From: Promethearchaeota archaeon
GTDB taxonomy: Archaea; Asgardarchaeota; Hermodarchaeia; Hermodarchaeales; Hermodarchaeaceae
Reading direction: 5' to 3'
Length of the DNA stretch: 52,230 nucleotides
NCBI GenBank assembly: GCA_048938385.1
Contig: JBHLMG010000016.1
Location: forward strand, 1 to 52,230
This document shows positions 5,640-39,721 of this stretch, piece by piece. The notes under the pieces are model-generated. The model worked only from the letters and a program-made list of their open reading frames with translations, was not told the origin of the DNA and made no database searches. Each line of letters starts with the position of its first letter. Within the stretch, counting starts at the first letter, position 1. A program made the position numbers and the translations under genes.

Positions 5640-5857
5640 GATGACCACCTGAGCGTAGACGAATATGGAGCCGCAATTGCATACTCGAGGTTCCTGGAGA
5701 GGGCTGGTTCCTCCCAGGAGTCTACATAGTGCCGCGGAATTCACGCTAAAAAGCATTTGCCTAGATAGGATGTAGAAGAAAAAGGATTGAATATTAAGCA
5801 ACCGCATGGGGAGAAGGCTATAAGGCGATTAGAGGGTAAGTGTGCGTGTTGGTGTGA

Positions 5858-10224: not shown

Positions 10225-11629
10225 CCGCACTGGCAACTGTGTTTTTTGCTTGGTTGAGTAGTGCTTTGGCTCGGTTTGCTGAGAGGGCTTCAACTGTGAC
10301 GCGAATGACGGCTTCGGTGCCTGAGGGGCGAATTAATACCCAGCTCGAGTCGTGAAAACTTGCTCGCAATCCATCTAAGCGGTTCAAGGATTCGATATCT
10401 GCCCATCCTTGGACAGAATCTGTAATCTTACTCATCGCTTGAATTTTGTGTGCGTTTGGACACCTTACTGAGGCGCGTAGTAGATAGGTAGAGGGGAGCG
10501 CATCTACGAGGGCACTTAGGGGTTGTTTTGCCCAGTCGAGTAATTCGAGAATTTTACAGGCTGCCAGTGGGCCATCCGGGCAGAGATGGACTTCGGGAAA
10601 GATGAAAGGGCCTGAAGGTTCTGCCCCTAACAAGGCATCATGCGCTTTGACCAGATTTGAGACAAACACATCTCCGACTTGGCAGCGTTCAACCCGTGCA
10701 TTGTGTTTTTGCGCGATGTGATCGATGGCACTTGAGCTAGAAACTGTTGTGGCAATTACTTTGCCGCCACGGGTTGCTAGATAGTAGTCTGCGATAAGGG
10801 CTAGGAGCACATCCCCTGCGAGTACGCGCCCTTTATCATCGACTGCTAAGACCCGATCCGCGTCGCCATCGTGGGCAAGACCTACTTCAGCTTTGGTAGA
10901 TTGCACTATTGCGCTCAGGTTGTCTAGACCGACGAAGTGTTGCCATTCAGCGGCAGCGGCACTTTGAATTTTAGAAGGACCACAGTGTCGTGCATAATTT
11001 TGCCCATCTGGGGGAATGTTTAGGGTCGTTAGATCAGCATTGAGTTGGCGCAAGGCAATTGGCGTCACGAGACCACCAACACCAAGTGCAGCATCTAGGA
11101 CTACTCGATGAGCCGCGTGTACCTCGGAGGCATCAAGCAAAGCAGCGATATGCACAGGGATCGGTTCAGCCTCACTGGATTGAGTAAAATCCTGCCAGGA
11201 AGCGGGTATTGATTCTTTAAGTAAGCGCGCGATTTCTTTTTGTTGTTCTGTCGCGAACCCAGCCCCATCGGGATTATGGAACTTAAAGCCGTTGTCTTCA
11301 GGGGGATTGTGGCTCGCCGTAACGATAATTGATGCGTTCATCCTGCTTTTACCAGCTGCAAAGGCAATAGTCGGCGTAGGTGCCATGCCTGTTTTCACTA
11401 CGGGGATTCCACCCTGAAGGAGTCCTGCTATCAGGGCGGATGTTAACATAGGTCCTGTGGTGCGGTGATCGTGTCCCACCATGATTTGTGGCGATTTGTG
11501 AAGGTTTCGCAGGTAGTGAGCGGTGGCTAACCCTATACGGATAGCCAAAGGTGCTGTGATGAGCTCGTTGACGCGTCCGCGTATTCCTGAACTGCCAAAG
11601 AGTGATTGGGGGGATTGGTGTTTAGGCAT
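10217..11629 (-). CDS. glmM: Phosphohexomutase, probably phosphoglucosamine mutase
   Basis: LFGSSGIRG, TASHNPPEDNG, DGDADR, VGDVFV, GAEPSG, IRPSGTE; adjacent to the GlmU-like gene. Confidence 0.75.
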   Translation of the reverse strand: MPKHQSPQSLFGSSGIRGRVNELITAPLAIRIGLATAHYLRNLHKSPQIMVGHDHRTTGPMLTSALIAGLLQGGIPVVKTGMAPTPTIAFAAGKSRMNASIIVTASHNPPEDNGFKFHNPDGAGFATEQQKEIARLLKESIPASWQDFTQSSEAEPIPVHIAALLDASEVHAAHRVVLDAALGVGGLVTPIALRQLNADLTTLNIPPDGQNYARHCGPSKIQSAAAAEWQHFVGLDNLSAIVQSTKAEVGLAHDGDADRVLAVDDKGRVLAGDVLLALIADYYLATRGGKVIATTVSSSSAIDHIAQKHNARVERCQVGDVFVSNLVKAHDALLGAEPSGPFIFPEVHLCPDGPLAACKILELLDWAKQPLSALVDALPSTYLLRASVRCPNAHKIQAMSKITDSVQGWADIESLNRLDGLRASFHDSSWVLIRPSGTEAVIRVTVEALSANRAKALLNQAKNTVASAVK

Positions 11630-11639
11630 TTTATTCGAC

Positions 11640-13037
11640 CTACGCTTTTTCTTCAGGTGAGGTGGTGAGGATGTCGTCGATCCAGTCAAGACCTAGGGAG
11701 AGAAGCTCTTGGGCTCGTTTTTTCTTGCGGGATTCAGCAAAGCACCGAAAGACGGGTTCTGTTCCCGAGGGACGAAGCAGCAGCCAGCCATCATCAAAGA
11801 TGATTTTTACACCATCTTGGATATTGACCTTGGCTTGGGGATAATGGGCTTTCACCGATTCAAGGGCGTGATTCGTTATAGCTTCTTTGAGTTCATTTGG
11901 ACAATCGATCGCGCGCTTAAATTGATAGTATTTGGGAAAAGCATCGATAATTTTACTCAGTTTGATCCCTTGTTGTGCGAGGTATTCGAGAAGATGAGCT
12001 GAGGCAAGTCCACTATCGGATAAAAAATTGAGGGTTGGATAGATGGCTTTCCCAGATTCTTCAAAAGCAAACAGGGCTTTGTGCTGTTTAACTGCCGCCA
12101 CAATTGCTGGGGGTCCAACTCGACTATACACTAACTTACCGTTGTATTGAGAAACGACATCTTCTACGAGGTTACTTGAGTTGATGGGTGTGACAATAGT
12201 GCCGTGACCATGTTGTTCCAACTCAATGAGTGCCAGGAGGGTTCCTGAGATATCACCCATTAGAGCACGCCCTTTATCATCAATGAAGAAGGCACGATCC
12301 GCATCACCGTCAACTGCTATTCCAAGATCTGCCCCAGTATCCCTCACGAGTTGTGCAGCTTTATCGAGAAGATTCACACGGAGATTCGGTGACCGCCCAG
12401 GGAAAAACGGGCTAGGACGGGCATTTAAGCCTGTTACTGTGCAGTCTAGCTGATTGAGAATGGTAAAAAGCCAGGGGATAGCAGTTCCATTCGCGGCGTC
12501 GAGGACAACCCGAAAGCTCTGTTTTCGAATCGAACCCTGATCCGCATGCTCTAAGACCTGGCTGACCCAGAAGGTCCCAACATTTGAGACCGTCTGCAAT
12601 GAGCCATGCTGTTGCCATTCTATAGGCTTTGGTGCCCGCAAGGTAATCTGCTCTATGCTCTCTTCAACTGCACGATCAACCGGAGCACCATCAGGACCTA
12701 ATACTTCGATACCTGACATATGGGCAGGAATATGACTCCCAGTAATTAAGACCGCTCCTGGGACCTGGCGGTGACGAGTGTAGTAACTCACAGCCGGAGT
12801 ACTCACTTCTCCACCGTATAACGCAGTTGAACCGCCTGCCATTAAACCACTCGCTATCGCATGAGAAAGGAGTGGACTGCTGGTTCTGTTATCATGACAA
12901 AGAAGGATTGGTTGTCGACCAAAGGTTGTGGCAACACTCAACCCGAGCCGCCAAGCGATGTGGGGATTTAATTCAGTCGATACATTACCACGAATACCAC
13001 TGGTCCCAAAACAGGGAGTCCACGCCATACTCTGCAT
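11640..13037 (-). CDS. Phosphohexomutase (PMM/PGM family) paralog with variant catalytic loop
   Basis: FGTSGIRG, TGSHIP (variant of TASHNP), DGDADR, AFEESG, LRPSGTEP; start may be at 13028-13052. Confidence 0.85.
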   Translation of the reverse strand: MQSMAWTPCFGTSGIRGNVSTELNPHIAWRLGLSVATTFGRQPILLCHDNRTSSPLLSHAIASGLMAGGSTALYGGEVSTPAVSYYTRHRQVPGAVLITGSHIPAHMSGIEVLGPDGAPVDRAVEESIEQITLRAPKPIEWQQHGSLQTVSNVGTFWVSQVLEHADQGSIRKQSFRVVLDAANGTAIPWLFTILNQLDCTVTGLNARPSPFFPGRSPNLRVNLLDKAAQLVRDTGADLGIAVDGDADRAFFIDDKGRALMGDISGTLLALIELEQHGHGTIVTPINSSNLVEDVVSQYNGKLVYSRVGPPAIVAAVKQHKALFAFEESGKAIYPTLNFLSDSGLASAHLLEYLAQQGIKLSKIIDAFPKYYQFKRAIDCPNELKEAITNHALESVKAHYPQAKVNIQDGVKIIFDDGWLLLRPSGTEPVFRCFAESRKKKRAQELLSLGLDWIDDILTTSPEEKA

Positions 13038-13151
13038 GACTCCTCCGAGCATTTTAAAGGTCGCGCTTTTTAAACAGATTTCGCCAACTGGTTTTTTCTA
13101 CAATGCATAAAGCGGAGAAGTTAAATTCCCAGACTACACTTAGGAGAATAG

Positions 13152-13862
13152 ATGCGGGTTATGAAAACAGCAAGCACTCTCGGGAATTCAGTCACAATGG
13201 ACGAAGATCATCTAGCAGCAGTCATTCGTGAATTCGGTCGATCAATGCGAGAAGTGACTGGCGGGTTAGATGATGCTATGAACCGATGGGAATCAGCTCA
13301 CCGTAGTTCCCTTCGACCAATCCGCGTCATTTTAGGTTCGTTGTCAAAAATCAACTATCTTCGAAATATTGAGGATCTCGGTAAACTCAACTCCTTTGAA
13401 GGGATCATCGATCGAGCCCTCACCAAGAACCTCGGACTACTCGATAAGGTCTTACCCAAGTTACTGGTGCTCGCTTCTGATTTTGAAAGTGCCATTCAAA
13501 AAATGCGACTCATGGAAAACCGAGTTTCGAAATTACAGCGGCGGGGTGCAGGCCTCCTCACCCCAGAAGGTTCGGCAGAGCCACGCATCCACCAATTAGT
13601 AGAAAATGTTGATGCACTGAGCCGGAAACTCCGTGAAATCGTCTGCATGTACGAGGATGAGTATTTATTCAGATTGAAAACGATACGAAACATCGAGGAA
13701 CTAATCGATCCCAAAGAACTGTATACCAGCCTACTGTTATGGACGATGGAACCCTATTTAGAATCTGAGCGAATCGAAGCAATTCGCAAAGAAATAGGCA
13801 CTCATATCGAAGAAACCCGTTCACTGGTCTCCCGAACCAACATCACTGCTAATATGTTTTAG
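13152..13862 (+). CDS. Helical protein resembling eukaryotic CINP / C1orf109
   Basis: C-terminal MY-x2-E...DP...LLLWTMEPYLES resembles the CINP C-terminus as I recall it (EMYRKE...DPD...MWLHQPYVES); central LNSFEGIIDRALTK resembles C1orf109 LRAFPDLKERLRRK. Confidence 0.6.
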   Translation: MRVMKTASTLGNSVTMDEDHLAAVIREFGRSMREVTGGLDDAMNRWESAHRSSLRPIRVILGSLSKINYLRNIEDLGKLNSFEGIIDRALTKNLGLLDKVLPKLLVLASDFESAIQKMRLMENRVSKLQRRGAGLLTPEGSAEPRIHQLVENVDALSRKLREIVCMYEDEYLFRLKTIRNIEELIDPKELYTSLLLWTMEPYLESERIEAIRKEIGTHIEETRSLVSRTNITANMF

Positions 13863-13938
13863 TCCCCGTCCATTGAACCAACGAATCATACATATTAATA
13901 CCTCTTCACTTCATCTTGAATCTACTGAGGACTCTTCC

Positions 13939-15336
13939 ATGGGCCGACTTTTTGGTACGCAGGGATTTCGTGGAATAGTCAACGAAGAATTAACAACAAC
14001 AATCGCACACGATCTTGGCCAAGCTATGGCATTCTACCTCGGACCAGGAAAAACAGTCGGAATTGGGTGGGATACGCGCATTTCCAGCGAGATGCTGTCT
14101 CTTGCCTTTAGTGCTGGATTAATGAAAGGAGGATGTGACACTCACCAATTAGGTCTTGTACCCACTCCCCTGCTATCCTTTGCGATTCCCCGTTTAGGTC
14201 TAGATGGTGGTGTTATGGTCACAGCCAGCCATAACCCCCCACAATTCAATGGGTTTAAACTATGGGCAGCGGACGGCGCATCCTACACAGAAGATATGAC
14301 GCAGCAAGTAGAAGAACACTATTTTGCCCCTGAGCAGCCTGGGGTATCATGGCAATCTTGTGGACAACAGGTTACTTCAGAGGATTTTCGTCCACAATAC
14401 ATAGAACATCTTGTAAACCAAATTGATATTGCTCGCGTAAAAAAACAGCAATTTCGAATAGTTGCAGATTGTGGGGGAGGTGCAGCATCAGTGGTTGTAC
14501 CCTCCCTATTAGAATACCTCGGAACCCAATCTGAGCTACTATTTTGTGAACCTGACGGATTTTTTCAGAACCGCCTCCCCGAACCCAAGGCGAAAAATCT
14601 AACTCAACTGGTTTCAAAGGTTTCAGAGTGTGACGCCGATATTGGAATGGCCTGGGACGGAGATGCAGATCGAATTGTGCTAGTGACGGAAACCGGGCGT
14701 TGCCTCATGGGTGATCGAACCTTTGCCTTAGCAGCATATCATCACTTACGACACTTAGAAACGAAAAATAAATGCATTGTCACTCAAGTAGCCACCAGCG
14801 ATGTACTTTACAATGTTGCGTCGGAAGTCGATGCTCGACTAATCACGACTAGTGTTGGTGAACCAAATATCGTAGCGAAAATGAAAGAAAGCAAGGCACA
14901 GATTGGTGGTGAAGAAAATGGAGGTGTGGTGTACCAGGGATGGTCCTGGACACGCGAAGGTATGCTGACAGCACTGTTCATTCTTGAGTTAATGGCACAG
15001 GAGGATCAAACCCTTGAACAACTCGATAACCGTTTTCCTAACTACTTTCAAATTAAAGAAAGCGTCGCTTGCAAAAATGAACTGAAAAAACCCTTACTTG
15101 AGATGCTATCACTGCTGGTTCCAAGTGATGCTGAGTGTGAGCTGCTTGACGGAGTGAAACTACGATACTCTGAAGGGTGGATACTCCTCCGTCCCTCAGG
15201 AACTGAGCCTATTTTTCGCATTTTCGCTGAAGCTAGCACGCAGAACCAAGCAAAGAACCTGGCAAACAAAGGGTTAAGAGTAGTAAAGGACGCACTTGAA
15301 GATGTAAAAAAGCAGTATAGACACCGGAGTGAGTAA
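13939..15336 (+). CDS. Phosphohexomutase (phosphomannomutase/phosphoglucomutase family)
   Basis: MGRLFGTQGFRG, TASHNPPQFNGFK, DGDADR, VGEP, GGEENGG, LRPSGTEP. Confidence 0.9.
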   Translation: MGRLFGTQGFRGIVNEELTTTIAHDLGQAMAFYLGPGKTVGIGWDTRISSEMLSLAFSAGLMKGGCDTHQLGLVPTPLLSFAIPRLGLDGGVMVTASHNPPQFNGFKLWAADGASYTEDMTQQVEEHYFAPEQPGVSWQSCGQQVTSEDFRPQYIEHLVNQIDIARVKKQQFRIVADCGGGAASVVVPSLLEYLGTQSELLFCEPDGFFQNRLPEPKAKNLTQLVSKVSECDADIGMAWDGDADRIVLVTETGRCLMGDRTFALAAYHHLRHLETKNKCIVTQVATSDVLYNVASEVDARLITTSVGEPNIVAKMKESKAQIGGEENGGVVYQGWSWTREGMLTALFILELMAQEDQTLEQLDNRFPNYFQIKESVACKNELKKPLLEMLSLLVPSDAECELLDGVKLRYSEGWILLRPSGTEPIFRIFAEASTQNQAKNLANKGLRVVKDALEDVKKQYRHRSE

Positions 15337-15761: not shown

Positions 15762-15878
15762 CCCTCCGTGAGAGCATAAGATTTTTGTAGCAACGATGCA
15801 TGCTCCAGACAGGCTTCCGTGGACTCAGCTCACTGAAAGTTGACAACGGAACCCGTGATACTTCGAGATGATTGTAAT

Positions 15879-16154
15879 TTGCCATCCAAACGGAAAAGTG
15901 GTGGTCGGACTAAAGGTGCGACCGGTCGTGGAGCGACAGTCCAGTGTTCACAGTGTGGAAAGCTAGTCCCTCGTGACAAAGCGAAAAAACGAACATCGCG
16001 TGCTTCTTTTGTTGACCCGCAGATGGCGCGGGAACTCCGCCGTTCAGGTACATATTTGCCCAGTCGGAGAGTAACAAAGTGGTTTTGTATTAGTTGTGCC
16101 GTACACAGAGGAGTGGTCAACATCCGGAGCCGAAAAGACCGGAAAAAGGGCTAG
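15879..16154 (+). CDS. rps26e: 30S ribosomal protein eS26
   Basis: PSKRKSGGR, VQCSQCGKLVPRDKAKK, CISCAVH, VVNIRS; probable TTG start. Confidence 0.95.
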   Translation: MPSKRKSGGRTKGATGRGATVQCSQCGKLVPRDKAKKRTSRASFVDPQMARELRRSGTYLPSRRVTKWFCISCAVHRGVVNIRSRKDRKKG

Positions 16155-23106: not shown

Positions 23107-23985
23107 ATGTTACCCTGTCCGATGGAGTTGGTGACCTGCGTGCCCAATAAATTAGTCATGCTCCGTATCGTTGATACCGGTGAAACAGTGCAAATAACTG
23201 ACGGGGCTCCAGCGAAGACTCATATGAAAGCAGATGAAGTCCTGATAATCATTGACGATGACGCACGCCTCATCTGGATATGGAAAGGCAGTGATGCACC
23301 CGTTCGTCGAAAATTCATTGCGGCTCGACGCGCCTCTGGAATTCGTGACCAACGCGGTCTCGTGTACAAGATCATGTCTGAAGATGAAGGGCAAGAAGAT
23401 TCAACCTTCCTTGAAGCTATGGGGCAACCCTTGTCTACAAAGCCCGATGAAGTCGCCGCCGCCGTTCATCAACCACCTTCGCCCCCGCCTTCCCCTATAC
23501 ACGCAGCCGAGCCCACCCAACCAACTTCGATGCCTGAACCTACGCCTCAAGATTACACGGAGGCTGTGGTAGCAGCGAGAAGAAGACCCGAACGCCAACC
23601 CGTTCAAGCGCCTCGACCACCTTCAGAGATTATAGAACAAGTTCAGCAACTAGAAGCCGTTCCGGGCTTTCGTCGGGAATTCGTGCTAATTGGGTTTGAT
23701 GCCTTTGGCACTACAGAAGAAATCACCACTGTGTTAGGTAAAAAAACCATCACCCGAAAACTCCAGCGAATTGATAAACTTCCAGAGGGCACAATCTTTG
23801 CCCAAGGATATACTCCTCGAGTAGTAATCAAAGACGGACAAGTTCTCGCAATTGAATTCCTTAAAAAACTAGAAGAAGAGGAATACCTCCATGAAACGCC
23901 CTCAATGCGAGAGCAAATGGCACAACAGATTACGGATCTCATTGAGGCATCTAGAAGCGAAAAAAGTTCCCGAAAAGCGAAATGA
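23107..23985 (+). CDS. Single gelsolin-domain protein with Pro-rich linker and extra C-terminal domain (Asgard 1DGelX-like)
   Basis: VLIIIDD..RLIWIWKGSDAPVRRKF.A...A...EDEGQEDSTFL gelsolin-repeat pattern; PPSPPPSP linker; start uncertain (23107-23158). Confidence 0.82.
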   Translation: MLPCPMELVTCVPNKLVMLRIVDTGETVQITDGAPAKTHMKADEVLIIIDDDARLIWIWKGSDAPVRRKFIAARRASGIRDQRGLVYKIMSEDEGQEDSTFLEAMGQPLSTKPDEVAAAVHQPPSPPPSPIHAAEPTQPTSMPEPTPQDYTEAVVAARRRPERQPVQAPRPPSEIIEQVQQLEAVPGFRREFVLIGFDAFGTTEEITTVLGKKTITRKLQRIDKLPEGTIFAQGYTPRVVIKDGQVLAIEFLKKLEEEEYLHETPSMREQMAQQITDLIEASRSEKSSRKAK

Positions 23986-24015: not shown

Positions 24016-24408
24016 ATGCAACAATTTGCGATGAGCGAAGAAGAAGCAAAGCAATTGGCAATGTATTTACGCGAAATTACACTGTATACAGAACTAGAAA
24101 CTCTTGCGGTTGTCACTAAGGCGGGCCGTCGGGTCGCTTTCAGCTCAACCAAGGGCGTCGATATTGATCCTGACTTACTATCCGCCATTTCAGCAGTCTT
24201 ACTGCAAACGGGAATTGAAGCCGTTACCAAACTCGAGTTTAATCCCTTGTTTGAATTAATCGTTCGAGGCGAAAAGGGTATCATCGTTGTAACTGATGCG
24301 GGACCACTCGTTTTGATTGGTGCAGGGGTGAAAATCGAGTCACTAGGTCATGTTGTATCCGTATTTCGCCACTTTGGACGAGAAATTGCAGCTTTATTTG
24401 CAAAATAG
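24016..24408 (+). CDS. Roadblock/LC7 (MglB-like) domain protein
   Basis: AVVTKAG..VA, LLSAISAVL, LIVRGEKGIIVV..AG, SLG; 130 aa. Confidence 0.85.
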   Translation: MQQFAMSEEEAKQLAMYLREITLYTELETLAVVTKAGRRVAFSSTKGVDIDPDLLSAISAVLLQTGIEAVTKLEFNPLFELIVRGEKGIIVVTDAGPLVLIGAGVKIESLGHVVSVFRHFGREIAALFAK

Positions 24409-25118: not shown

Positions 25119-26477
25119 GTGCCAAAATCCAAACCACCCACAGACAAAGGAACTGCTACCCTTTTTCGAACCCATTACTCAAATGAATTAGGACCAGAGC
25201 TAGCAGGGCAACAAGTGACGATTACTGGGTGGGTGCAGCGGATTCGTCGGTTGGGTAAAATAAGCTTCTTACTCGTTCGCGACCGTGAAGGAATCACCCA
25301 ATGTACCTTTCCCCATGCTAGTACAGCCCCCGCACTATTGAAGAAGCTGGATCAATTGGACAACGAGTATGCAGTTGTTGTCAGGGGACATGTGAAAGCG
25401 GAAAAACAAGCCCGCCAAGGAGTTGAAGTTATTCCCGAAAAGATTATCCTAGTAAATACCGCTCCAACTACTCTGCCTCTAGATACCTCAGGGAAGGTGG
25501 AGGCAGATATCGGAACCCGATTTGATAACCGAGTAATGGATTTACGACGCAGTGAAGTCCAACGCTTGTTTAAGATTCAACATTTCACAGTTTCTCAGAT
25601 GCGACGATTCCTTGAAGCACACAACTTCCGTGAAATTCACACACCAAAAATCGTCGCTACCGCTACAGAAGGGGGAGCAGATTTGTTTGAAGTAAAGTAC
25701 TTCGAACGGAAGGCCTTCCTTGCACAAAGCCCACAATTTTATAAACAGCTTTGTTTAGTGGGTGGCTTCGATCGTGTGTACGAAGTTGCCCCAGTGTATC
25801 GTGCAGAGAAGCATAACACGCCTCGCCACCTAAATGAGTACACGAGTTTTGATTTTGAGATGGCGTGGATACAAAGTGAAGAAGATGTAATGCGGCTTGA
25901 GGAGCAGATGCTCCACGAAGTGTTCACAAGCGTGCGAAAAACCTGTGCTCAGGAGCTAAAGGAACTAAAAGCTGAAATCAAAGTGCCTAAGCTTCCTATT
26001 AAGCGGATCGAAGTGCGTGATGCTATTAGGATACTGCAGAAAGAAGGGTTCGATATACCTCAAGACTCTGATATCCCCAGTGAAGGCGAAGAAAAACTCT
26101 TTCAACTCGTCTTCAAGGAAACTGGAGAAGAGTTCTTCTTTCTCACACAGTATCCTACAGCAATTCGCCCGTTCTATACGATGCCATTAGAAAGCGATCC
26201 TACCTTAACACATGGCTTTGACCTTGTGTACCGTGGAATGGAAGTAACTACTGGGAGTCAACGCATCCACCAATACGATTCGCTTGTTAACCAAATCAAG
26301 AAGACAGGACTGAATCCGAGTACCTTTGCGTTCTACATTGAGCCATTCAAGTACGGTGCACCACCACACGGCGGATTAGCCATAGGTATCGAGCGGTTAA
26401 CGATGCAAATGCTTGGATATCAAAACATTCGTGAAGCCGTCCTGTTTCCTCGCGACCGTACCAGGCTTGTTCCTTAA
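25119..26477 (+). CDS. aspS: Aspartate--tRNA ligase, archaeal type
   Basis: RTHYS, GWV OB-fold start, [47 protein letters not shown]. Confidence 0.95.
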
Positions 26478-26553
26478 ACACCAAAGTCTGAGAAACTTGT
26501 TCGCAGGTAAAGTTCAAGAGGACATTCATGTAATATTTAGAATGGTGAACTAG

Positions 26554-26754
26554 ATGTCATCACCTAGTGACCAGATGACGGCCTATTTCCTCAAAAAAGG
26601 ACAGAACTTAGAAGAACTAGCAGATCACCATGCTGCAATTGGAGAAACTCCTCAAGCCAAAGAGCTCTACGCGCAGGCCCGAGCGATGTATGAACGCTTG
26701 GGTAACGCTGAACTTGTTGGTCGAATTGATGAAAAGGCTGCAAAGCTTGGATGA
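26554..26754 (+). CDS. Small helical-hairpin (TPR-like) hypothetical protein
   Basis: 66-aa ORF with A...G...A...Y..A...YE.LG pattern; fills the intergenic space. Confidence 0.55.
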   Translation: MSSPSDQMTAYFLKKGQNLEELADHHAAIGETPQAKELYAQARAMYERLGNAELVGRIDEKAAKLG

Positions 26755-26764
26755 GTAACGACTG

Positions 26765-27754
26765 CTAGAAAATATTGATGATTCGAGTCGTTGGTTCACT
26801 CAGCAGTCGGACCGCTATGTGGTCAGAATTTTGATTTAAGAGCTCTTGTTCCTCCGGGGTTAATTGTTGCCACAGGTCTGTACTATTGGAACCTTGACTA
26901 TTGGTGAGAATGTAATTGAATTGAGTGGAAGATTGGGGGGTGGGAATGGCATCATGGGTATCGATGATGACCAAGGGGCTCTTAGTGAGGGAATAGCAAG
27001 TACAGAGCCAGTGAAAGAGCTGAGGATTCAAGGGTGGAGGGTCAACGAGGAAGAGGGGCGGAAGTTGTTTTTCGCTCTTTGCTAAGAGTTTAAGCAATAA
27101 GAGATTGAATATAAAGGTTGATTCAGGAAGAGAGGATCCAGTGATTAGCGTGGGGAGATGTTGGAGTCGGGTAAGAGAGATATTATCGTAGTTGGTTGTG
27201 AAGAGTTGATGGGGTAAAGCTTCAAGAAGCTGATGAATCTCCTGGTAAGCTGAACCGTAGCTATGGTATTCAGGCAGAACGCTTTGAAGATACTTCACAG
27301 TAGGGTTCGTAGTAGTGAGGATCACATTCCAAAGAATTACTTGCAGCAGATCTCGTGCTAGTGGAGACAGAGGTGTGAATTCTTCAAAGAGACCAATGAG
27401 AATTGAAATATGTTTGAATGGGTGTAACCCTTGGGCTAGGTCAAAGATATTGAAGGTCACACGGTCTGTTGATAGGTCAAGGTGCCAAAGGGGGCATTCA
27501 CAAACTTGTTCTTCAAATCCCGGAGTCCTTCGTCCTGTTAGAACTAGAACTGGAATCCGGTGGTCGTCACAGAGTTGGATGAAGAGATTATAGTAAATAT
27601 CTTCAGCCCGTGTTCCAATGATGAAGAGGTTGGACAAGTCGTGGAAAGTCAGGGAGAAAGGGTGAGCCCGGGTGTTTTGAATCAGGTACCCAAGTCGAAG
27701 GAGACCCTGAGGTCGTGAAGACTCATCATTGAAGTGTGCACTTTCATCCGACAA
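26765..27754 (-). CDS. Hypothetical protein, possibly a degenerate HerA/FtsK-like ATPase
   Basis: LRLG...F.L....L.NLFIIG lead-in typical of HerA-like domains but no GxxGxGK(T/S); LFLVD at the Walker B position. Confidence 0.45.
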   Translation of the reverse strand: MSDESAHFNDESSRPQGLLRLGYLIQNTRAHPFSLTFHDLSNLFIIGTRAEDIYYNLFIQLCDDHRIPVLVLTGRRTPGFEEQVCECPLWHLDLSTDRVTFNIFDLAQGLHPFKHISILIGLFEEFTPLSPLARDLLQVILWNVILTTTNPTVKYLQSVLPEYHSYGSAYQEIHQLLEALPHQLFTTNYDNISLTRLQHLPTLITGSSLPESTFIFNLLLLKLLAKSEKQLPPLFLVDPPPLNPQLFHWLCTCYSLTKSPLVIIDTHDAIPTPQSSTQFNYILTNSQGSNSTDLWQQLTPEEQELLNQNSDHIAVRLLSEPTTRIINIF

Positions 27755-27936
27755 GTCGTTAACCTAGCTTCTAAGCGTTTATTGACCTTTTTTTAGATAT
27801 TCGTGATAGTCTGTTTGAACAGACAGACATGGAACAGAGAGGTCACTGAAAGTAATCCACAATGAATTTACTATTTGCCGTTTCCTATTTAAACAAGAAG
27901 CGTGCAATGCCCCCCTTGTCAACGAGGCAAAAGCCA

Positions 27937-28851
27937 ATGAACCTTAAAGCATTCATCACTATTACTCGACCTGCAAATCCTTTGTTCGGAAGCCTAACCA
28001 CAATCATAGGTGTTCTCACCACAAACCGGTTCATACTTACTAATCTGATGATAACCCAGTGGACTCTCCTGGATTTAGTCATCGTGCTTCTTTTAACGGC
28101 GCTCACCTACATCTTCATTGCAGCTGCAGGAAATGTTGTAAACGATATCTTTGACATCGAAGTCGATAAAATCAACCGACCCGATCGCCCCCTCCCTAGC
28201 GGTCAGATTAGCATTGGTCAAGCCAAGGCTTGGACAGCGATCCTTGTGGTTATTGGAGTGATATTTTCAATTCTGACTATCCCCTACTCTGCGATTGGTA
28301 TTTGGACGGTGGCAATTGTGGGGCTATTTGCCCTGATTGGGCTCGTGTATGCAGCCAAGGGTAAAGTGATGGGAATTTGGGGTAATTTCACTGTAGCCAT
28401 CAGTTTTGCCTTTGGCCTCTTTTATGGCTCCCTCATCGTTTTTCCAGTTATTCTACCAATCATCTTCGTCTATTTCATCACTGCTGCTAGCGTCCTGCAA
28501 GGACGAGAAGCAATTAAGGGAATTGAAGATATCGAAGGGGATGCAGTTCGGAATGTTCAAACAATTGCTCGCAAGTACGGTATCCGGAAAGCCGCTATGT
28601 TTGCCACCATCTGTAATGTAATCGGGATTATTGGATTCGTGTTCCCTTGGATTGCAAACATACTCGGATGGAACTGGACGGGGTTTCTGTACTTCATTCT
28701 ACTTATTCCCGCTGCATCGTGTGTGGCTTACTCCGCTGTAGTGATTGTCCAAAACCCAGTAAAAAGGGCTACTCGGGCAAGTTTTGCTGACAAAATAGGG
28801 GCATACCTTGGTCTCGTTAACTTCTTGCTTGGAACTATTGTAATTGCCTGA
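27937..28851 (+). CDS. UbiA-family prenyltransferase, probably digeranylgeranylglyceryl-phosphate (DGGGP) synthase
   Basis: ITRPAN, NDIFDIEVDKINRPDRPLPSG, GN, REAIKGIEDIEGD; multiple TM helices. Confidence 0.88.
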   Translation: MNLKAFITITRPANPLFGSLTTIIGVLTTNRFILTNLMITQWTLLDLVIVLLLTALTYIFIAAAGNVVNDIFDIEVDKINRPDRPLPSGQISIGQAKAWTAILVVIGVIFSILTIPYSAIGIWTVAIVGLFALIGLVYAAKGKVMGIWGNFTVAISFAFGLFYGSLIVFPVILPIIFVYFITAASVLQGREAIKGIEDIEGDAVRNVQTIARKYGIRKAAMFATICNVIGIIGFVFPWIANILGWNWTGFLYFILLIPAASCVAYSAVVIVQNPVKRATRASFADKIGAYLGLVNFLLGTIVIA

Positions 28852-28853
28852 TC

Positions 28854-29570
28854 TTGGAGGAAAAAGGACTGCGAATAGCTGCCACCAGCGACATTCACTG
28901 GCCCCACTACCAGGGACTTTTCATCAAAGGACTTCGTCAACTACCTGCAAAACTTGATCTCATGTTAATAGCAGGAGACCTTGTTAACCGTGGCAGCTAC
29001 CGCGGGTTGGCAGCGATTATTCAAAAGCTTGTGGAACATAAAATTTCATGTCCAGTTGTTGCTTGCTTCGGAAACGACGACTATGATTCTGTGAAGGAGT
29101 CCTTACGAGCCAGCGCTCGTGACGCTATTATCTTCCTTGATGATGAGATGACCACTCTGACTATCCGAGGCAATGATGTAGCCGTGGTGGGTAGTCGGGG
29201 TGTGTTAGACCAGCCAACCTATTGGCAAGCACGCAATGTAGCAGGTATCCGCGAAGCGTATACTCAACGAGTAACAAAAATTGATGCGTTACTAGCGTCT
29301 GCTAAAGCCCAAACCCCCCAGACTATTCTACTCACACATTATACGCCTACTTTTAGAACTCTTAAAGGGGAAACGCGACGGGTCTATGGCCAAATGGGAA
29401 GTAAACGAGTTGAAGAGCTGCTCATTAAACATACGCCAATGTTCGCTATTCATGGTCATGCTCACCGAGGGGTCCGGAGAGTGATGGTCAATGAAGTTCC
29501 TGTCTACAATGTTTCGCTTCCCCTCAATCGCACCATTGTTCTACTAAAGACACCTGTAAAGAGATTTTAA
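28854..29570 (+). CDS. Calcineurin-like metallophosphoesterase
   Basis: SDIH, AGDL, FGNDD, THY, HGHAH. Confidence 0.88.
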   Translation: MEEKGLRIAATSDIHWPHYQGLFIKGLRQLPAKLDLMLIAGDLVNRGSYRGLAAIIQKLVEHKISCPVVACFGNDDYDSVKESLRASARDAIIFLDDEMTTLTIRGNDVAVVGSRGVLDQPTYWQARNVAGIREAYTQRVTKIDALLASAKAQTPQTILLTHYTPTFRTLKGETRRVYGQMGSKRVEELLIKHTPMFAIHGHAHRGVRRVMVNEVPVYNVSLPLNRTIVLLKTPVKRF

Positions 29571-29664
29571 ACATGGTGACTGCGCGCGTATCTAAGAATA
29601 AAGTCGGTTGGAAATCCCCATCTAACAGCAGTTAAGCCCGTTAAAGCAAATTCACGAAAAGTAT

Positions 29665-31191
29665 ATGTGTAGTCAAATCGACGAAAAGGTCATGTCCCAG
29701 CCAGCGGTGGATACAAAAAGCAGTGGTTTTTGCCCATCCTGTCATATCAATATGGCTGAACGGTATTGCAAGGAATGCGGTCAAGTTTTTTGTTTACCAT
29801 GTGCACGTCAAGAGCTCGTTGAGTTTCTGACCTGCGCTCGTTGTGGCCCTGAACACATCGAAGAACAAGAAGATGGCGAGTGGAAATGTACCGAGTGTGA
29901 AGAAGAAGCCCAGAGTGCCACTCGGCGTGTTTACCTATGTCCAAATTGTGGATCTGAAGCAATCGTGCCCATCCACAATATGCGACAAGACTTAGTTGGA
30001 CAGTATCGAACGACTTACTATCGGCTACGAACAGGCCATGAACTCCTGGCAGGATTTGCTGCACGCTTACGCATCCTACGCTGGCGAATCCGTGAACTTC
30101 GAATGGCTAGTTTCCTTCATGACCCAGAAGTTGAAAAGGAACTCTTGGAGTTAATGAGGACGGAGTTACCAAGTGTTCAAGAACGCATCCTCTTTCGGGC
30201 ACGGAATGTGGTGGAACGCCACCAAGCCAGTAAAACCCGATTTATGCAGCCTGAACGGTGGACCATCACGGATTTTCCACTACTCGCAGGACTTATTGAG
30301 GCGATCCAAGAAGATGTCGCCGATTATCAAGCGTATTGTCGTGATCTCGTTAATGGATTAGATGTGAAACTTGCCACTATTGAAGATCGGTTAACACAAA
30401 TGGCAGAATGGCACAAACTCTTCAATGATCACATCGAATATCTTCCCATTCTTGAAAACGAACGCCCGGTTGCGGCCATTCAACCCGTCAATTTGACTAA
30501 ATCCGAAAGGAGCGAGGGAATGAGTAATGGCATCCTATTCATTACGACGCAACGGCTCCTATTCCTGGGACGGAAGGGATTCTTTACTAAGGAAACTCGT
30601 GTCGTACACACGATCCGTTTAGAAAATGTCACTCATGTTGAACTACAAGGACGGCTTCGTCGACGCGTGCAAGTCATCGCTGACGAAGAGGAAATTAAAA
30701 TTGGTGGACCCTCCAAGACACTAGAAGCGATTCCCGACGCAATCGCGCTAGCTGAAACTTTTTCACAGCATAGTTTAGTTACCAAGAGTGGTTCGCTTCG
30801 TATATTGAATGAGAAAGTCGATGTTTCCTCGCTGCGCGACGAAGTTGACAAGCTCATCAATTATGCCATGGCTTCTGAAAACGGTCTGAAGGCAGATCAG
30901 TTTGATCCACGACGATCCCACCCGGGGTATGAGGGATATTACCCTGATTCGTTTTTTTCAAAGGAGTTGCGGGAAGATGCTCTAGAACATAACCCCCTCT
31001 TCCAACTGGAGCAACGGAAATTCAGTATTGAGTCAACGATGGAGGTATTGAAAACGCAATTCGAAGAGGGGAAACTGTCTGATGAGAAATTCTTCAAACA
31101 ATACCGTGCACTAACTCAAGAACTCTACCTAGTAGAGGCACAGATAAGGAAGCGACGAACTCGAAGCGGTCTTGAGGAGCCGCGATTTTAG
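29665..31191 (+). CDS. Multidomain putative ESCRT adaptor: B-box-like and zinc-ribbon Cys clusters, helical region, PH/GRAM-like domain, C-terminal steadiness box (Vps23-like)
   Basis: Six CxxC pairs; GILFITTQRLLF...IRLENV PH-like pattern; SIESTMEVLKTQFEEGKLSDEKFFKQYRALTQELY steadiness-box-like; convergent with the ESCRT-III pair. Confidence 0.7.
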   Translation: MCSQIDEKVMSQPAVDTKSSGFCPSCHINMAERYCKECGQVFCLPCARQELVEFLTCARCGPEHIEEQEDGEWKCTECEEEAQSATRRVYLCPNCGSEAIVPIHNMRQDLVGQYRTTYYRLRTGHELLAGFAARLRILRWRIRELRMASFLHDPEVEKELLELMRTELPSVQERILFRARNVVERHQASKTRFMQPERWTITDFPLLAGLIEAIQEDVADYQAYCRDLVNGLDVKLATIEDRLTQMAEWHKLFNDHIEYLPILENERPVAAIQPVNLTKSERSEGMSNGILFITTQRLLFLGRKGFFTKETRVVHTIRLENVTHVELQGRLRRRVQVIADEEEIKIGGPSKTLEAIPDAIALAETFSQHSLVTKSGSLRILNEKVDVSSLRDEVDKLINYAMASENGLKADQFDPRRSHPGYEGYYPDSFFSKELREDALEHNPLFQLEQRKFSIESTMEVLKTQFEEGKLSDEKFFKQYRALTQELYLVEAQIRKRRTRSGLEEPRF

Positions 31192-31218
31192 CTTATCTGT
31201 TGTAGGGGTTCATCCCAG

Positions 31219-31851
31219 CTACTCTTGCACTTCTTTCTTCATTCGTTCGAGTTCACGACGAGTGCGTTCACGACGCTCCTCAGAAGTTTCTAACACTTCA
31301 GCTTCGCCTTCTGGGACAGAGGGAAGCTGACCAGCTTCTTCGAGAGCGATCATCGTTTCGATATCTTCGAGTTCAGCATCAACTTCAGCATCAAGTTCTT
31401 CATCTTCAAGACCTAATCCGAGAATTTCTTCAGTAGCTTCAGCCTCTTCGATGAGTGCTTGTGTTTCGAGGATGACTTCTCGGGCGACCTCCGGTGAAGC
31501 CGTCTCGCGGAGATTATTGAGCTCATTGCCAATTCCCTTCAGTGCAGAAATCACTTCTGTTTCACTGCGGGCCTGGTTAATGGCCTCAACGCCGCGTTCC
31601 ATCAGGTCGATTTCTTGTTCAAGCAATCGAGCCTTACGTAAGTATCGTTGGCGCCGCCGGAGTTGCATTTTAGCAGCTTTTCTGTCACCTCGACGAACAT
31701 TTCGGACAGCTTTGATTCTTGAATCACTCGCCTTGGTCTCGTATTGGCGACTACGGACCTCTAATTTGTCCGTGACCTTGTGAATCCGAGCAATGGTGTC
31801 TTCTTTTGGTTCAGGTTTTTTTGGAAAGAGTTTTTCCCAGAACTTTACCAT
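31219..31851 (-). CDS. ESCRT-III subunit, Snf7/Vps20/32/60 (CHMP4-7) class
   Basis: N-terminal amphipathic FWEKLF, basic helices with KAAKMQLRRRQRY, acidic tail ELDAEVDAELEDI, MIM2-like LPSVP. Confidence 0.88.
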   Translation of the reverse strand: MVKFWEKLFPKKPEPKEDTIARIHKVTDKLEVRSRQYETKASDSRIKAVRNVRRGDRKAAKMQLRRRQRYLRKARLLEQEIDLMERGVEAINQARSETEVISALKGIGNELNNLRETASPEVAREVILETQALIEEAEATEEILGLGLEDEELDAEVDAELEDIETMIALEEAGQLPSVPEGEAEVLETSEERRERTRRELERMKKEVQE

Positions 31852-31854
31852 GGA

Positions 31855-32466
31855 CTAACCCTCCTCCTTTAATCGTTGAATTTCTTTTTCGAGCTCAGAG
31901 ACTCGTTTTTCAGGTTCTGGCAGGGAGGTACCGGTTTCGATTTCGATTTCGGAGTCTAATTCCTTCAACGCGTCTTTGACTTCACCATCGGTGACCTCGG
32001 TGGAGACCGCCATTCGTTCAATGCCAGCCTCAGCTACTTCTTGGGTCATTTCGAAGTGTCGCAGGTTTCCTTCAATCTGGTCAACCAGTTGGGCAACTTC
32101 GGGTACCTTGACTTGGTTCTTTAGCCCGCCTAATGCGGCATTCAGTTGTCCCAAGATTTTTGCAACATCGCCGATTGCCTGGCTCTGTCGTAATTGAGCT
32201 TGAAGACCTTCAATGCGTAATCGATAAGCATCCACACTTAACGCCCATTTCTGGAAGCGTAATTGGTGTTGTAGATACATTCGAGTGGCATCCATGTTAC
32301 CGGAAAGCCGGTACTTCTTTGCGCGTTGACGGCTTGAACTAGCTTCCTTTTCTAACATCTTTCGCTGTAAATCGAGTTTTCGACAAAAAACATCCAGACG
32401 GAAAATCAGCTTGTTTAAGTCAGGACCGCCACCTAGCCAATTCATAAATCGGCGAATAGCAGACAT
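31855..32466 (-). CDS. ESCRT-III subunit, Vps2/24/46 (CHMP1-3) class
   Basis: LIFRL...KL...LEKE, GNMDATRMY, CHMP1-like helix pattern, C-terminal MIM1-like ELEKEIQRLK; amphipathic N-terminus RRFMNWL. Confidence 0.88.
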   Translation of the reverse strand: MSAIRRFMNWLGGGPDLNKLIFRLDVFCRKLDLQRKMLEKEASSSRQRAKKYRLSGNMDATRMYLQHQLRFQKWALSVDAYRLRIEGLQAQLRQSQAIGDVAKILGQLNAALGGLKNQVKVPEVAQLVDQIEGNLRHFEMTQEVAEAGIERMAVSTEVTDGEVKDALKELDSEIEIETGTSLPEPEKRVSELEKEIQRLKEEG

Positions 32467-32588
32467 TGTCGTTACACCTATCACTGGAATCCTTCTAAGC
32501 CAAACTTATTATCTTTTCGACTTTCTCCGGCTATCCATCTTTTCATCGAGTGAAACCTATAACCTGTCGAGAGAGTAAACCCAAGAAT

Positions 32589-39454: not shown

Positions 39455-39721
39455 ATGACTGCCAAGAAATCTTTTACAGCAAAGGAGGCGAAAGAGATAG
39501 GGGAGAAACTAGGCATTAAATGGGATAAGTTCGATATCGAGCAATTTAGAAAAGGAATGGATGTAGAGTTGGAGCATGGCCGCCGTGATCCGCGGACTAA
39601 TGTCACTGATGATGATCCAATTCTAACTGGAAAGATTGCATGGGCGCATCTAATTGAGTTTCCAGACTATTATGAAAGACTTGAAAAGCTTGAGGAAGAA
39701 GCAAAGGCGTATTGGGAATAG
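39455..39721 (+). CDS. DUF5661-family small protein
   Basis: QFRKGMDVELEHG, TNVTDDD, KIAWAHL.EFPDYY.RL. Confidence 0.82.
   Translation: MTAKKSFTAKEAKEIGEKLGIKWDKFDIEQFRKGMDVELEHGRRDPRTNVTDDDPILTGKIAWAHLIEFPDYYERLEKLEEEAKAYWE

What the first reader, a model, noticed from the sequence alone, without database searches (positions are those of the whole stretch)
29665..32466. Minimal ESCRT locus: ESCRT-III pair convergent on a single-chain Zn-finger/PH/steadiness-box adaptor
Seen in sequence: a CHMP1-3-like and a CHMP4-7-like gene lie 3 bp apart in one operon and end 27 bp from the stop of a 508-aa protein. That protein has six CxxC pairs (29731-29949, first cluster B-box-like), a long helical region, a PH/GRAM-like domain (~30460-30760) and a C-terminal segment matching the Vps23/TSG101 steadiness-box pattern (~30997-31150). 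Established: the steadiness box assembles ESCRT-I, and Vps36 of ESCRT-II uses a PH-fold GLUE domain, with zinc fingers in yeast, to bind lipid and ubiquitin. Described Asgard ESCRT clusters usually include Vps4, Vps22/36, Vps25 and often ubiquitin genes; none is in this window. Inference: one polypeptide may combine ESCRT-I-like and ESCRT-II-like targeting functions for a dedicated or secondary ESCRT-III system. Diverse steadiness-box fusions in Asgards may already be catalogued, so novelty rests on this architecture and its linkage.
Basis: partly seen in the sequence, partly recalled or inferred. Interest (0 to 1): 0.8.

Follow-up and report, generated by a model that had tools for sequence, protein, structure and literature searches.

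The report
Known Asgard ESCRT adaptor beside ESCRT-III
This is a Hermodarchaeial copy of an already catalogued Asgard protein (zinc ribbons, coiled coil, PH domain, steadiness box) sitting next to the two ordinary ESCRT-III genes, a piece split off the usual ESCRT gene cluster rather than a new minimal system.

Summary
A 508-aa ORF (29665-31191, +) ends 27 bp from a convergent pair of Snf7-family genes that lie 3 bp apart. It has six conserved CxxC pairs, a three-helix coiled coil, a PH domain and a C-terminal helical hairpin. A family profile matches the yeast Vps23 ESCRT-I core at E=7e-8.

The architecture and the linkage are both in print. Makarova et al. 2024 (mBio, PMC10936438) name the family Znr_CC_PH_SB (asCOG cog.011556) and call it a likely ESCRT-I component. 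Their Table S2 lists, for a Hermodarchaeota genome, the window's gene order: AsnS, HerA-like, UbiA, CpdA, Znr_CC_PH_SB, Vps20, Vps24.

The 'dedicated or secondary minimal system' reading is not supported. In more divergent Hermodarchaeota (L012, L015) the same three genes are directly followed by Vps4, Vps25, Vps22, Vps28 and UEV-Vps23. Two of three published Hermodarchaeota gene lists read through list only this one ESCRT-III pair; the third adds a second pair on a small contig.

So the window holds a fragment of the canonical ubiquitin-ESCRT cluster. Function is inferred and untested.

Novelty: already known. Interest is low.

The parts
29665..31191 (+). Znr_CC_PH_SB gene (508 aa from ATG 29665; 499 aa if translation starts at ATG 29692, where most homologues begin)
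   Evidence: ORF. The homologue alignment shows most sequences starting at MSQPAV. It is 73% identical to the L005 protein, which by coordinates is the Table S2 entry labelled cog.011556.
29731..29949 (+). Zn-binding region: six CxxC pairs (residues 23-95), enough for three Zn sites
   Evidence: All 12 Cys are invariant or >=90% conserved in 34 sequences. Family members hit zf-B_box (10 of 34), DZR (6 of 34) and ANCHR-like B-box (5 of 34). The family profile hits the RNF4 RING (1e-5) and TRIM2 (2e-4). The window's own protein has no B-box hit at E<=1.
29971..30429 (+). Three long helices (residues 103-147, 154-194, 203-255): coiled-coil / stalk-like bundle
   Evidence: AlphaFold2 models, pLDDT mostly >90.
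30466..30756 (+). PH-fold domain (residues 268-364), with a conserved basic stretch G329-R-L-R-R-R
   Evidence: Seven strands plus a C-terminal helix in the model. bPH_3 hits in 18 of 34 and GRAM in 5 of 34 family members. Foldseek finds the Vps36 PH domain 2cay_B (TMt 0.59) and Lam6 PH-like 5yqr. Conserved residues.
30760..30978 (+). Two helices (366-402) followed by a disordered, poorly conserved linker (410-438)
   Evidence: pLDDT <50 for residues 410-438. The alignment is variable and gapped in this stretch.
30994..31164 (+). Steadiness-box helical hairpin (residues 444-467 and 473-500)
   Evidence: Family profile against PDB sequences: yeast Vps23 core 2p22_A E=7.2e-8, 2f66_A 1.2e-6, 2caz_A 1.7e-6, TSG101 6vme_B 6.5e-3. 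Vps23_core hits in 14 of 34 members. The L015 and L012 orthologues score 27.5 and 26.8 bits against a cut-off of 26.8.
31192..31218 (.). 27-bp spacer between the two convergent stop codons
31219..31851 (-). ESCRT-III, Vps20/32/60 class (ESCRT-IIIB), 210 aa; conserved QLP(S/T)VP near the C-terminus (nt 31312-31326)
   Evidence: Snf7 9.7e-17. Best solved relatives are Asgard ESCRT-IIIB chains. 76-92% identical across 6 loci with L176 P177 V179 P180 invariant. The resemblance to a MIM2 motif is recalled, not tested.
31855..32484 (-). ESCRT-III, Vps2/24/46 class (ESCRT-IIIA), 203 aa from ATG 32466; conserved C-terminal LExEIxRLK (nt 31867-31893)
   Evidence: Snf7 2.3e-15. Best solved relatives are CHMP1B, CHMP1A and CHMP2A. 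81-93% identical across 5 loci. The resemblance to a MIM1 motif is recalled, not tested.

Best explanation
What it is:
- The window comes from a Hermodarchaeota-type Asgard archaeon.
- The 508-aa gene is that lineage's copy of the Asgard-specific Znr_CC_PH_SB family (asCOG cog.011556; Makarova et al. 2024).
- The two convergent genes are the ordinary Asgard ESCRT-III pair: an ESCRT-IIIB (Vps20/32/60 class) next to the adaptor and an ESCRT-IIIA (Vps2/24/46 class) upstream of it.
- The three genes are one edge of the canonical Asgard ubiquitin-ESCRT cluster. In the window's clade a rearrangement has separated them from Vps4, Vps25, Vps22, Vps28 and UEV-Vps23. The more divergent Hermodarchaeota still have all of them side by side.

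Likely mechanism (every step here is inferred):
- The C-terminal steadiness-box hairpin docks the protein into the hairpin-based ESCRT-I headpiece, with Vps28 and UEV-Vps23 or with the steadiness-box-bearing Asgard Vps22.
- The PH domain, with its conserved basic stretch, holds the complex on the membrane.
- The three-helix coiled coil acts as a stalk.
- The N-terminal Zn modules bind a further ligand, either ubiquitin or a partner protein.
- ESCRT-II (Vps25) then nucleates ESCRT-IIIB, ESCRT-IIIA co-polymerises, and Vps4 recycles both through their conserved C-terminal motifs.

Shown here: gene structure, domain architecture, family membership, ESCRT-III classes, synteny.
For: Architecture:
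- 12 conserved Cys.
- A confident model with three long helices, a PH fold and a terminal hairpin (pLDDT 87.3 and 91.4).
- Steadiness box: the family profile hits the yeast Vps23 core at 7.2e-8 as the best of all PDB sequences.
- Other proteins that match only residues ~430-497 mostly carry Vps23_core. Of 9 such proteins scanned, 7 have a Vps23_core hit at E<=0.01 and one of these is above the cut-off.

Family identity:
- Locus L005 (73% identical protein) coincides in gene coordinates with As_022 contig n_00039. There the gene is labelled cog.011556 and is followed by Vps20 and Vps24.

Fragment of the canonical cluster:
- In L012, and in L015 as far as its stretch reaches (it stops within Vps28), the order is adaptor(+), IIIB(-), IIIA(-), Vps4(+), Vps25(+), EAP30/Vps22(-), a 98-aa ORF(-), Vps28(-), UQ_con+Vps23_core(-).
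- Table S2 gives the same order for As_097.
- A Thorarchaeota genome (As_021) has Znr_CC_PH_SB, Vps24, Vps4, Vps25, Vps22 in a row.

One ESCRT-III pair per genome:
- The As_022 and As_097 lists were read through.
- The As_022 Vps4 cluster lacks ESCRT-III genes.

Selection: the ESCRT-III proteins are 76-93% identical across loci in which the adaptor is 49-78% identical.
Against: - No binding, lipid or ubiquitin data exist for this family in the literature I could search. Every functional step is by analogy.
- All eight genes of the neighbourhood, including an aspartyl-tRNA synthetase, are syntenic within Hermodarchaeota. Conservation inside this group therefore says little about function.
- The two Lokiarchaeota cog.011556 genes seen have no ESCRT neighbour in the passages shown (ribosomal protein L35Ae and MetE; a Zn-ribbon protein).
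- L011 has lost the linkage.
- As_168 lists a second Vps24-Vps20 pair on another small contig. This is either a real second pair or bin redundancy.
- The window's own protein scores below the Pfam cut-offs for every domain.
- The window's own genome was not available. Its separate Vps4 cluster and its single ESCRT-III pair are inferred from relatives.
[quoted passage not shown] The published family boundary is therefore not clean.
Confidence: 0.85

Rival explanations
1. This is a self-contained minimal or secondary ESCRT system, in which one polypeptide replaces ESCRT-I and ESCRT-II and serves its own dedicated ESCRT-III pair, alongside a separate canonical cluster.
For: No Vps4, ESCRT-II or ubiquitin gene lies in the 52-kb window. 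The protein combines an ESCRT-I-type hairpin with PH and Zn modules, as Vps36 has. As_168 lists a second Vps24-Vps20 pair on another contig.
Against: As_022 and As_097 list only one Vps20 and one Vps24 each, the pair next to this gene. The As_022 Vps4 cluster has no ESCRT-III of its own. In L012 and L015 the three genes are physically continuous with Vps4, Vps25, Vps22 and Vps28, and in L012 also UEV-Vps23, where the L015 stretch ends. Both ESCRT-III proteins keep conserved C-terminal motifs of the kind that recruit Vps4 (the motif identity is recalled).
Confidence: 0.07
2. The adjacency is inherited synteny without functional meaning. The protein uses its hairpin, PH and Zn modules in some process unrelated to ESCRT-III.
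For: The whole block (HD hydrolase, AspRS, HerA-like, UbiA, phosphoesterase, adaptor, ESCRT-III pair) is conserved within Hermodarchaeota. AspRS is seen in 10 of 15 loci and the phosphoesterase in 14 of 15. The genes are convergent, not co-transcribed. The Lokiarchaeota members seen are not next to ESCRT genes. L011 lacks the pair.
Against: The hairpin is most similar to the ESCRT-I assembly module of Vps23. The gene also sits beside Vps24 and Vps4 in a Thorarchaeota genome. In L012 and L015 it borders the full ESCRT cluster.
Confidence: 0.1
3. The helical bundle plus PH domain is a DH/PH-type guanine-nucleotide exchange module, so the protein regulates a small GTPase.
For: Foldseek ranks DH/PH RhoGEF structures first for both models, with E about 2e-6 to 1e-4 and probability 1.00.
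Against: TM-scores are only 0.15-0.33 with rmsd 17-25 A over about 300-380 columns, which is not a shared fold. The helical part is three long helices, not a DH domain. No RhoGEF Pfam hit appears in the window protein or among the 25 families listed for the 34 family members (28 matched).
Confidence: 0.02

Closest known systems
Znr_CC_PH_SB / Znr_PH_CC_SB, asCOG cog.011556 (Makarova et al. 2024, mBio, PMC10936438; main-text passages, section 6 and five parts of Table S2 read)
   Same: The domain order is identical: three Zn sites, coiled coil, PH, steadiness box. An orthologue at 73% identity carries this label. The flanking genes in the published Hermodarchaeota entry are the same as in the window.
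   Different: Nothing of substance. At 499-508 aa it is shorter than the Lokiarchaeota members listed (609 and 650 aa). Some Hermodarchaeota orthologues are filed under cog.002441 in the same table.
Vps23/TSG101 (ESCRT-I)
   Same: A C-terminal steadiness-box hairpin preceded by helical stalk-like segments. It is the best sequence-profile match in the PDB.
   Different: There is no UEV or E2-like domain. Zn modules and a PH domain take its place. A separate UEV-Vps23 gene exists in related genomes.
Vps37 (ESCRT-I; Mod_r)
   Same: A membrane-contacting part, a coiled coil and a steadiness-box hairpin, in a lineage reported to lack Vps37 (Hatano et al. 2022, PMC9192718, passages read).
   Different: No Mod_r match for this protein. 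The analogy is architectural only.
Vps36 (ESCRT-II) GLUE domain
   Same: A PH fold combined with zinc fingers. Foldseek gives TMt 0.59 to 2cay_B.
   Different: There are no winged-helix (EAP30) domains. The Zn modules are N-terminal, not inserted in the PH domain. The sequence signal is marginal (Pfam 0.08; profile 0.017). Lam6/GRAM-type PH domains match about as well.
CdvA of TACK archaea
   Same: A membrane-binding protein encoded beside ESCRT-III, with a hairpin that two papers relate to the steadiness box (passages). One of 34 family members has a weak CdvA hit (5.9e-3).
   Different: There is no PRC-barrel. No ESCRT-III-binding peptide was identified, and the ESCRT-III proteins here were not examined for a winged-helix extension.

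Membership tests
Znr_CC_PH_SB (asCOG cog.011556) | Three N-terminal zinc-binding modules | tested here: met
   Six CxxC pairs; all 12 Cys are invariant or >=90% conserved in 34 sequences.
Znr_CC_PH_SB (asCOG cog.011556) | Coiled-coil region between the Zn modules and the PH domain | tested here: met
   Helices 103-147, 154-194 and 203-255 at pLDDT >90.
Znr_CC_PH_SB (asCOG cog.011556) | PH domain | tested here: met
   Model residues 268-364. bPH_3 hits in 18 of 34 members. Foldseek hits to Vps36 and Lam6 PH domains. The window protein alone is sub-threshold.
Znr_CC_PH_SB (asCOG cog.011556) | C-terminal steadiness box | tested here: met
   Family profile against the yeast Vps23 core, E=7.2e-8. 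Orthologues score at or above the Pfam cut-off. The window protein alone scores 21.1 bits against a cut-off of 26.8.
Znr_CC_PH_SB (asCOG cog.011556) | Orthology to a protein assigned to the asCOG by its authors | tested here: met
   The gene ends of L005 map exactly onto As_022-p_00914..00918 of Table S2. p_00914 is labelled cog.011556 and is 73% identical to the window protein. Caveat: the As_097 and As_168 orthologues are labelled cog.002441.
ESCRT-I subunit Vps23/TSG101 | N-terminal UEV domain | tested here: not met
   No UEV or UQ_con hit at E<=1. The N-terminus consists of Zn modules.
ESCRT-I subunit Vps23/TSG101 | Steadiness-box hairpin that assembles with Vps28 and Vps37 | not testable with these tools
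   The hairpin is present. Assembly with partners needs an experiment.
ESCRT-II subunit Vps36 | Two winged-helix domains (EAP30 family) | tested here: not met
   No EAP30 or ESCRT-II hit in the window protein, in the 25 families listed for the 34 members (28 matched) or in 19 further proteins: 17 longer relatives and the L012 and L015 orthologues. The model has no winged-helix fold.
ESCRT-II subunit Vps36 | GLUE-type split PH domain with inserted zinc fingers | tested here: inconclusive
   A PH fold is present. Vps36_ESCRT-II scores E=0.08, 2cay_A E=0.017 and 2cay_B TMt 0.59. The Zn modules are not inserted in the PH domain.
ESCRT-III (Snf7, PF03357) | Snf7 core domain; assignment to the Vps20/32/60 or Vps2/24/46 class | tested here: met
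   Both genes are above the Pfam cut-off. The 210-aa protein matches Asgard ESCRT-IIIB chains. The 209-aa protein matches CHMP1 and CHMP2. Table S2 labels the orthologues Vps20 and Vps24.
B-box zinc finger | Cross-brace binuclear Zn module matching zf-B_box | tested here: inconclusive
   10 of 34 family members hit zf-B_box (best E 1.2e-4) and 5 of 34 hit ANCHR-like_BBOX. The window protein has no such hit at E<=1. Zn ligand geometry was not examined.

The most novel reading that the evidence does not exclude
Znr_CC_PH_SB is the missing bridging subunit of Asgard ESCRT. It acts as a functional stand-in for both Vps37 (third headpiece hairpin plus stalk) and the Vps36 GLUE module (membrane and ubiquitin binding). 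Its persistent position directly against the ESCRT-III genes in Hermodarchaeota and Thorarchaeota reflects direct, CdvA-like nucleation of ESCRT-III on membranes. That would link the TACK Cdv system and eukaryotic ESCRT-I/II through one protein.
Probability: 0.15. Interest if true: 0.6.

Novelty: already known. Interest (0 to 1): 0.15.

Why it matters
Asgard archaea are reported to lack Vps37 and Vps36. Hatano et al. 2022 state that an undetermined factor probably bridges ESCRT-I and ESCRT-II (passages read). Znr_CC_PH_SB is a published candidate for such a role, and it remains untested in the literature I could search.

This window adds one more member. Together with L012 and L015 it gives a clear picture: in Hermodarchaeota the gene marks the ESCRT-III end of the canonical cluster, and that cluster was split in one clade. 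This is useful for annotation and for choosing a compact set of genes to reconstitute. It is not a new kind of system.

Tried and rejected
1. Complex prediction. I submitted the steadiness-box part of UEV-Vps23, the whole Vps28 and the C-terminal 149 residues of the adaptor, all from L012 and each with an alignment. The job returned 'no answer' (score 0.00, mark 0.32, controls not run). It counts neither for nor against binding.
2. DH/PH RhoGEF resemblance. These structures top the Foldseek list for the full model and for residues 100-410, but TM is 0.15-0.33 and rmsd 17-25 A. Rejected as a fold match. No BAR-PH structure appeared in the rows shown.
3. Winged-helix domains in longer relatives. 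I looked for them because some orthologues are labelled 'wH'. There is no EAP30 or ESCRT-II hit in 19 proteins.
4. The search for related loci with the diverse alignment A2 failed for lack of a conserved stretch. It was repeated with the close alignment A1. That search can only find near relatives, so linkage outside Hermodarchaeota rests on the paper's table, not on my own loci.
5. The listing of cluster members for ten distant relatives was switched off. The lineages of the distant family members (98 cluster representatives at E<=1e-3) were therefore not checked by me.
6. Of Table S2 I read 5 of 300 parts plus search passages, so I have no full tally of the 48-50 cog.011556 rows. Figures 2, 3C and 6 were not visible; I saw legends only.


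Full report
**Observation**

- A 508-aa ORF lies at 29665-31191 on the plus strand.
- Two minus-strand ORFs lie at 31219-31851 (210 aa) and 31855-32484 (209 aa from GTG, 203 aa from the ATG at 32466).
- The convergent stop codons are 27 bp apart. The two minus-strand genes are 3 bp apart.
- Base composition around the locus is unremarkable (GC 0.45-0.47).

Both minus-strand genes are Snf7-family ESCRT-III genes (E=9.7e-17 and 2.3e-15).
- The 210-aa protein's only solved relatives at E<=0.01 are two Asgard 'Vps20/32/60-like / ESCRT-IIIB' chains.
- The 209-aa protein's five relatives are CHMP1B, CHMP1A and CHMP2A.

**The 508-aa protein**

On its own it gives only sub-threshold Pfam hits: Vps23_core 3.1e-4, bPH_3 2.4e-3, GRAM 0.048, Vps36_ESCRT-II 0.08, FYVE 0.17.

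It has many relatives.
- The word-indexed search found 33 proteins at E<=1e-3. Where sources name them, the names are 'B-box zinc finger protein', 'PH domain-containing protein' or 'Zn-ribbon protein', from Thor- or Hermodarchaeota MAGs.
- The exhaustive search found 98 cluster representatives at E<=1e-3, of which 71 are at E<=1e-10.

In a 34-sequence alignment reaching 17% identity, all twelve cysteines of the six CxxC pairs are invariant or >=90% conserved. Scanning the 34 members one by one gives bPH_3 in 18, Vps23_core in 14, zf-B_box in 10, DZR in 6, and ANCHR-like B-box and GRAM in 5 each.

A profile of the alignment, searched against all PDB sequences, gives these matches:
- yeast Vps23 ESCRT-I core as the top three hits (7.2e-8, 1.2e-6, 1.7e-6), aligned over the C-terminal hairpin;
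- TSG101 headpiece, 6.5e-3;
- Vps36 PH domain, 0.017;
- RNF4 RING (1e-5) and TRIM2 (2e-4) for the Zn region.

AlphaFold2 with this alignment gives a confident model (mean pLDDT 87.3). Its parts are:
- small beta elements around the Zn sites (21-102);
- three long helices (103-147, 154-194, 203-255);
- a seven-stranded PH-type domain with its C-terminal helix (268-364);
- two more helices (366-402);
- a disordered linker (410-438);
- a helical hairpin (444-467 and 473-500).

A second model of residues 100-410 has pLDDT 91.4. Foldseek finds PH domains, including Vps36 2cay_B (TMt 0.59) and Lam6. The top-ranked DH/PH RhoGEFs have TM 0.15-0.33 and rmsd about 20 A, so I do not take them as a fold match.

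**Already described**

Makarova et al. [quoted passage not shown] I read text passages, section 6 in full and five parts of Table S2. [quoted passage not shown] They compare its PH and Zn modules with those of Vps36. It is asCOG cog.011556.

Table S2 lists a Hermodarchaeota genome (As_022) with this order: AsnS, small ORF, HerA-like(-), UbiA, CpdA, Znr_CC_PH_SB(+), Vps20(-), Vps24(-). That is the window's gene order from 25119 to 32484.

My locus L005 is that very contig. All five gene ends coincide after adding the contig offset. Its protein is 73% identical to the window's. Membership in the published family is therefore established.

Apart from that paper and its preprint, the only mention I found is a methods line in a 2023 preprint that uses cog.011556 as a steadiness-box model. 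I found no experimental work on the protein.

**Linkage**

The genome scan used patterns from close relatives only. It returned 15 loci, all Hermodarchaeota-type MAGs.
- Both ESCRT-III genes lie convergent and downstream in 13 of 15 loci.
- In L007 the contig ends inside the first ESCRT-III gene.
- In L011 the 2 kb downstream hold a 379-aa ORF without a Pfam hit and a DUF362 gene instead.

The whole neighbourhood is syntenic in these loci: HD hydrolase, AspRS, HerA-like, UbiA, phosphoesterase. This conservation alone is therefore weak evidence for function.

More telling is what lies beyond the pair in the divergent clade, where the adaptor is about 50% identical. In L012, and in L015 as far as its stretch reaches (it stops within Vps28), the pair is followed at once by:
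- Vps4 (AAA 4e-42, Vps4_C, MIT);
- Vps25 (ESCRT-II, 3e-12);
- Vps22 (EAP30, 3e-25);
- a 98-aa ORF;
- Vps28 (1e-12);
- a UQ_con+Vps23_core protein.

Table S2 shows the same order for As_097. In the Thorarchaeota genome As_021 the order is Znr_CC_PH_SB, Vps24(-), Vps4, Vps25, Vps22.

In As_022, from the window's clade, the ubiquitin / UEV-Vps23 / Vps28 / Vps22 / Vps25 / Vps4 cluster is on another contig and has no ESCRT-III gene. No other Vps20 or Vps24 is listed for that genome or for As_097. As_168 lists a second Vps24-Vps20 pair on a small contig, which may be bin redundancy.

The two Lokiarchaeota entries seen are not next to ESCRT genes.

**Interpretation**

The window holds the ESCRT-III end of the canonical Asgard ubiquitin-ESCRT cluster. 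A rearrangement in one Hermodarchaeota clade detached it from the Vps4 end. It is not a minimal or secondary system.

The ESCRT-III proteins are strongly conserved: 76-93% identity where the adaptor has 49-78%. They keep C-terminal QLP(S/T)VP and LExEIxRLK stretches. From memory these resemble the MIM2 and MIM1 Vps4-binding motifs. I did not test this.

For the adaptor the most likely mechanism is an ESCRT-I-type accessory subunit. All of these steps are inferred by analogy with Vps23, Vps37 and Vps36.
- The hairpin joins the steadiness-box headpiece.
- The PH domain, with its conserved GRLRRR stretch, contacts the membrane.
- The coiled coil acts as a stalk.
- The Zn modules bind a further ligand.

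Hatano et al. 2022 report that Asgards lack Vps37 and Vps36 and that an unknown factor may bridge ESCRT-I and ESCRT-II (passages). That leaves room for this protein.

**Verdict**

The feature is already known and interest is low.

The boldest reading still open is a Vps37/Vps36 stand-in that nucleates ESCRT-III directly, as CdvA does. I put it at about 15%.

Noticed in passing
L015:8004-9500; Table S2 rows As_097-p_01480 and As_168-p_01241: [quoted passage not shown] The As_022 orthologue is labelled cog.011556 (PH). The PH region is well conserved in these sequences, and no EAP30 or ESCRT-II hit was found. The asCOG boundary looks inconsistent here.
   Followed up: partly
L011:6544-8434: One divergent Hermodarchaeota MAG keeps the upstream synteny but has a 379-aa helical ORF without a Pfam hit and a DUF362 gene where the ESCRT-III pair should be.
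   Followed up: partly
window 26765-27754 (-): A 329-aa ORF with no Pfam hit at E<=1, conserved at 34-56% identity in 13 of 15 loci. The published table labels its orthologue 'HerA helicase' (cog.007772, arCOG00280).
   Followed up: no
window 1704-5807 (-): A 1367-aa ORF with no Pfam family at E<=0.01.
   Followed up: no
window 24016-24408 (+) and 23107-23985 (+): A Roadblock/LC7-domain protein (6.3e-6) lies directly after a 292-aa ORF with no Pfam hit. This is the kind of small-GTPase-associated pair often noted in Asgard genomes (recalled).
   Followed up: no
window 13152-13862 (+): A 236-aa ORF with a sub-threshold hit to the eukaryotic C1orf109-like ribosome-biogenesis family (PF15011, 8.4e-5, 22.9 bits against 27). 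It is set between three paralogous phosphogluco/phosphomannomutase genes (10217-11689, 11640-13052, 13873-15336).
   Followed up: no
window 15840-16151 (+) and 39455-39718 (+): Two small genes missed by the 120-aa ORF list: ribosomal protein S26e (9.7e-21) and a DUF5661 protein (6.4e-23). There is also one tRNA-Cys at 1565-1639.
   Followed up: no
proteins P0003 and P0150: An 80%-identical adaptor homologue and a Vps28 homologue both report a longest contig of 87,762 nt from the same source type. In one close relative the two halves of the cluster may lie on one contig. This could not be checked because the metagenome contigs are closed.
   Followed up: no
L012:13765-14061 (-) and L012:15587-16114 (-): A 98-aa ORF and a 175-aa ORF inside the ESCRT cluster have no Pfam hit. 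The table labels their counterparts 'Vps28 protein, C-terminal region' (cog.004126) and an uncharacterised protein (cog.005522).
   Followed up: no
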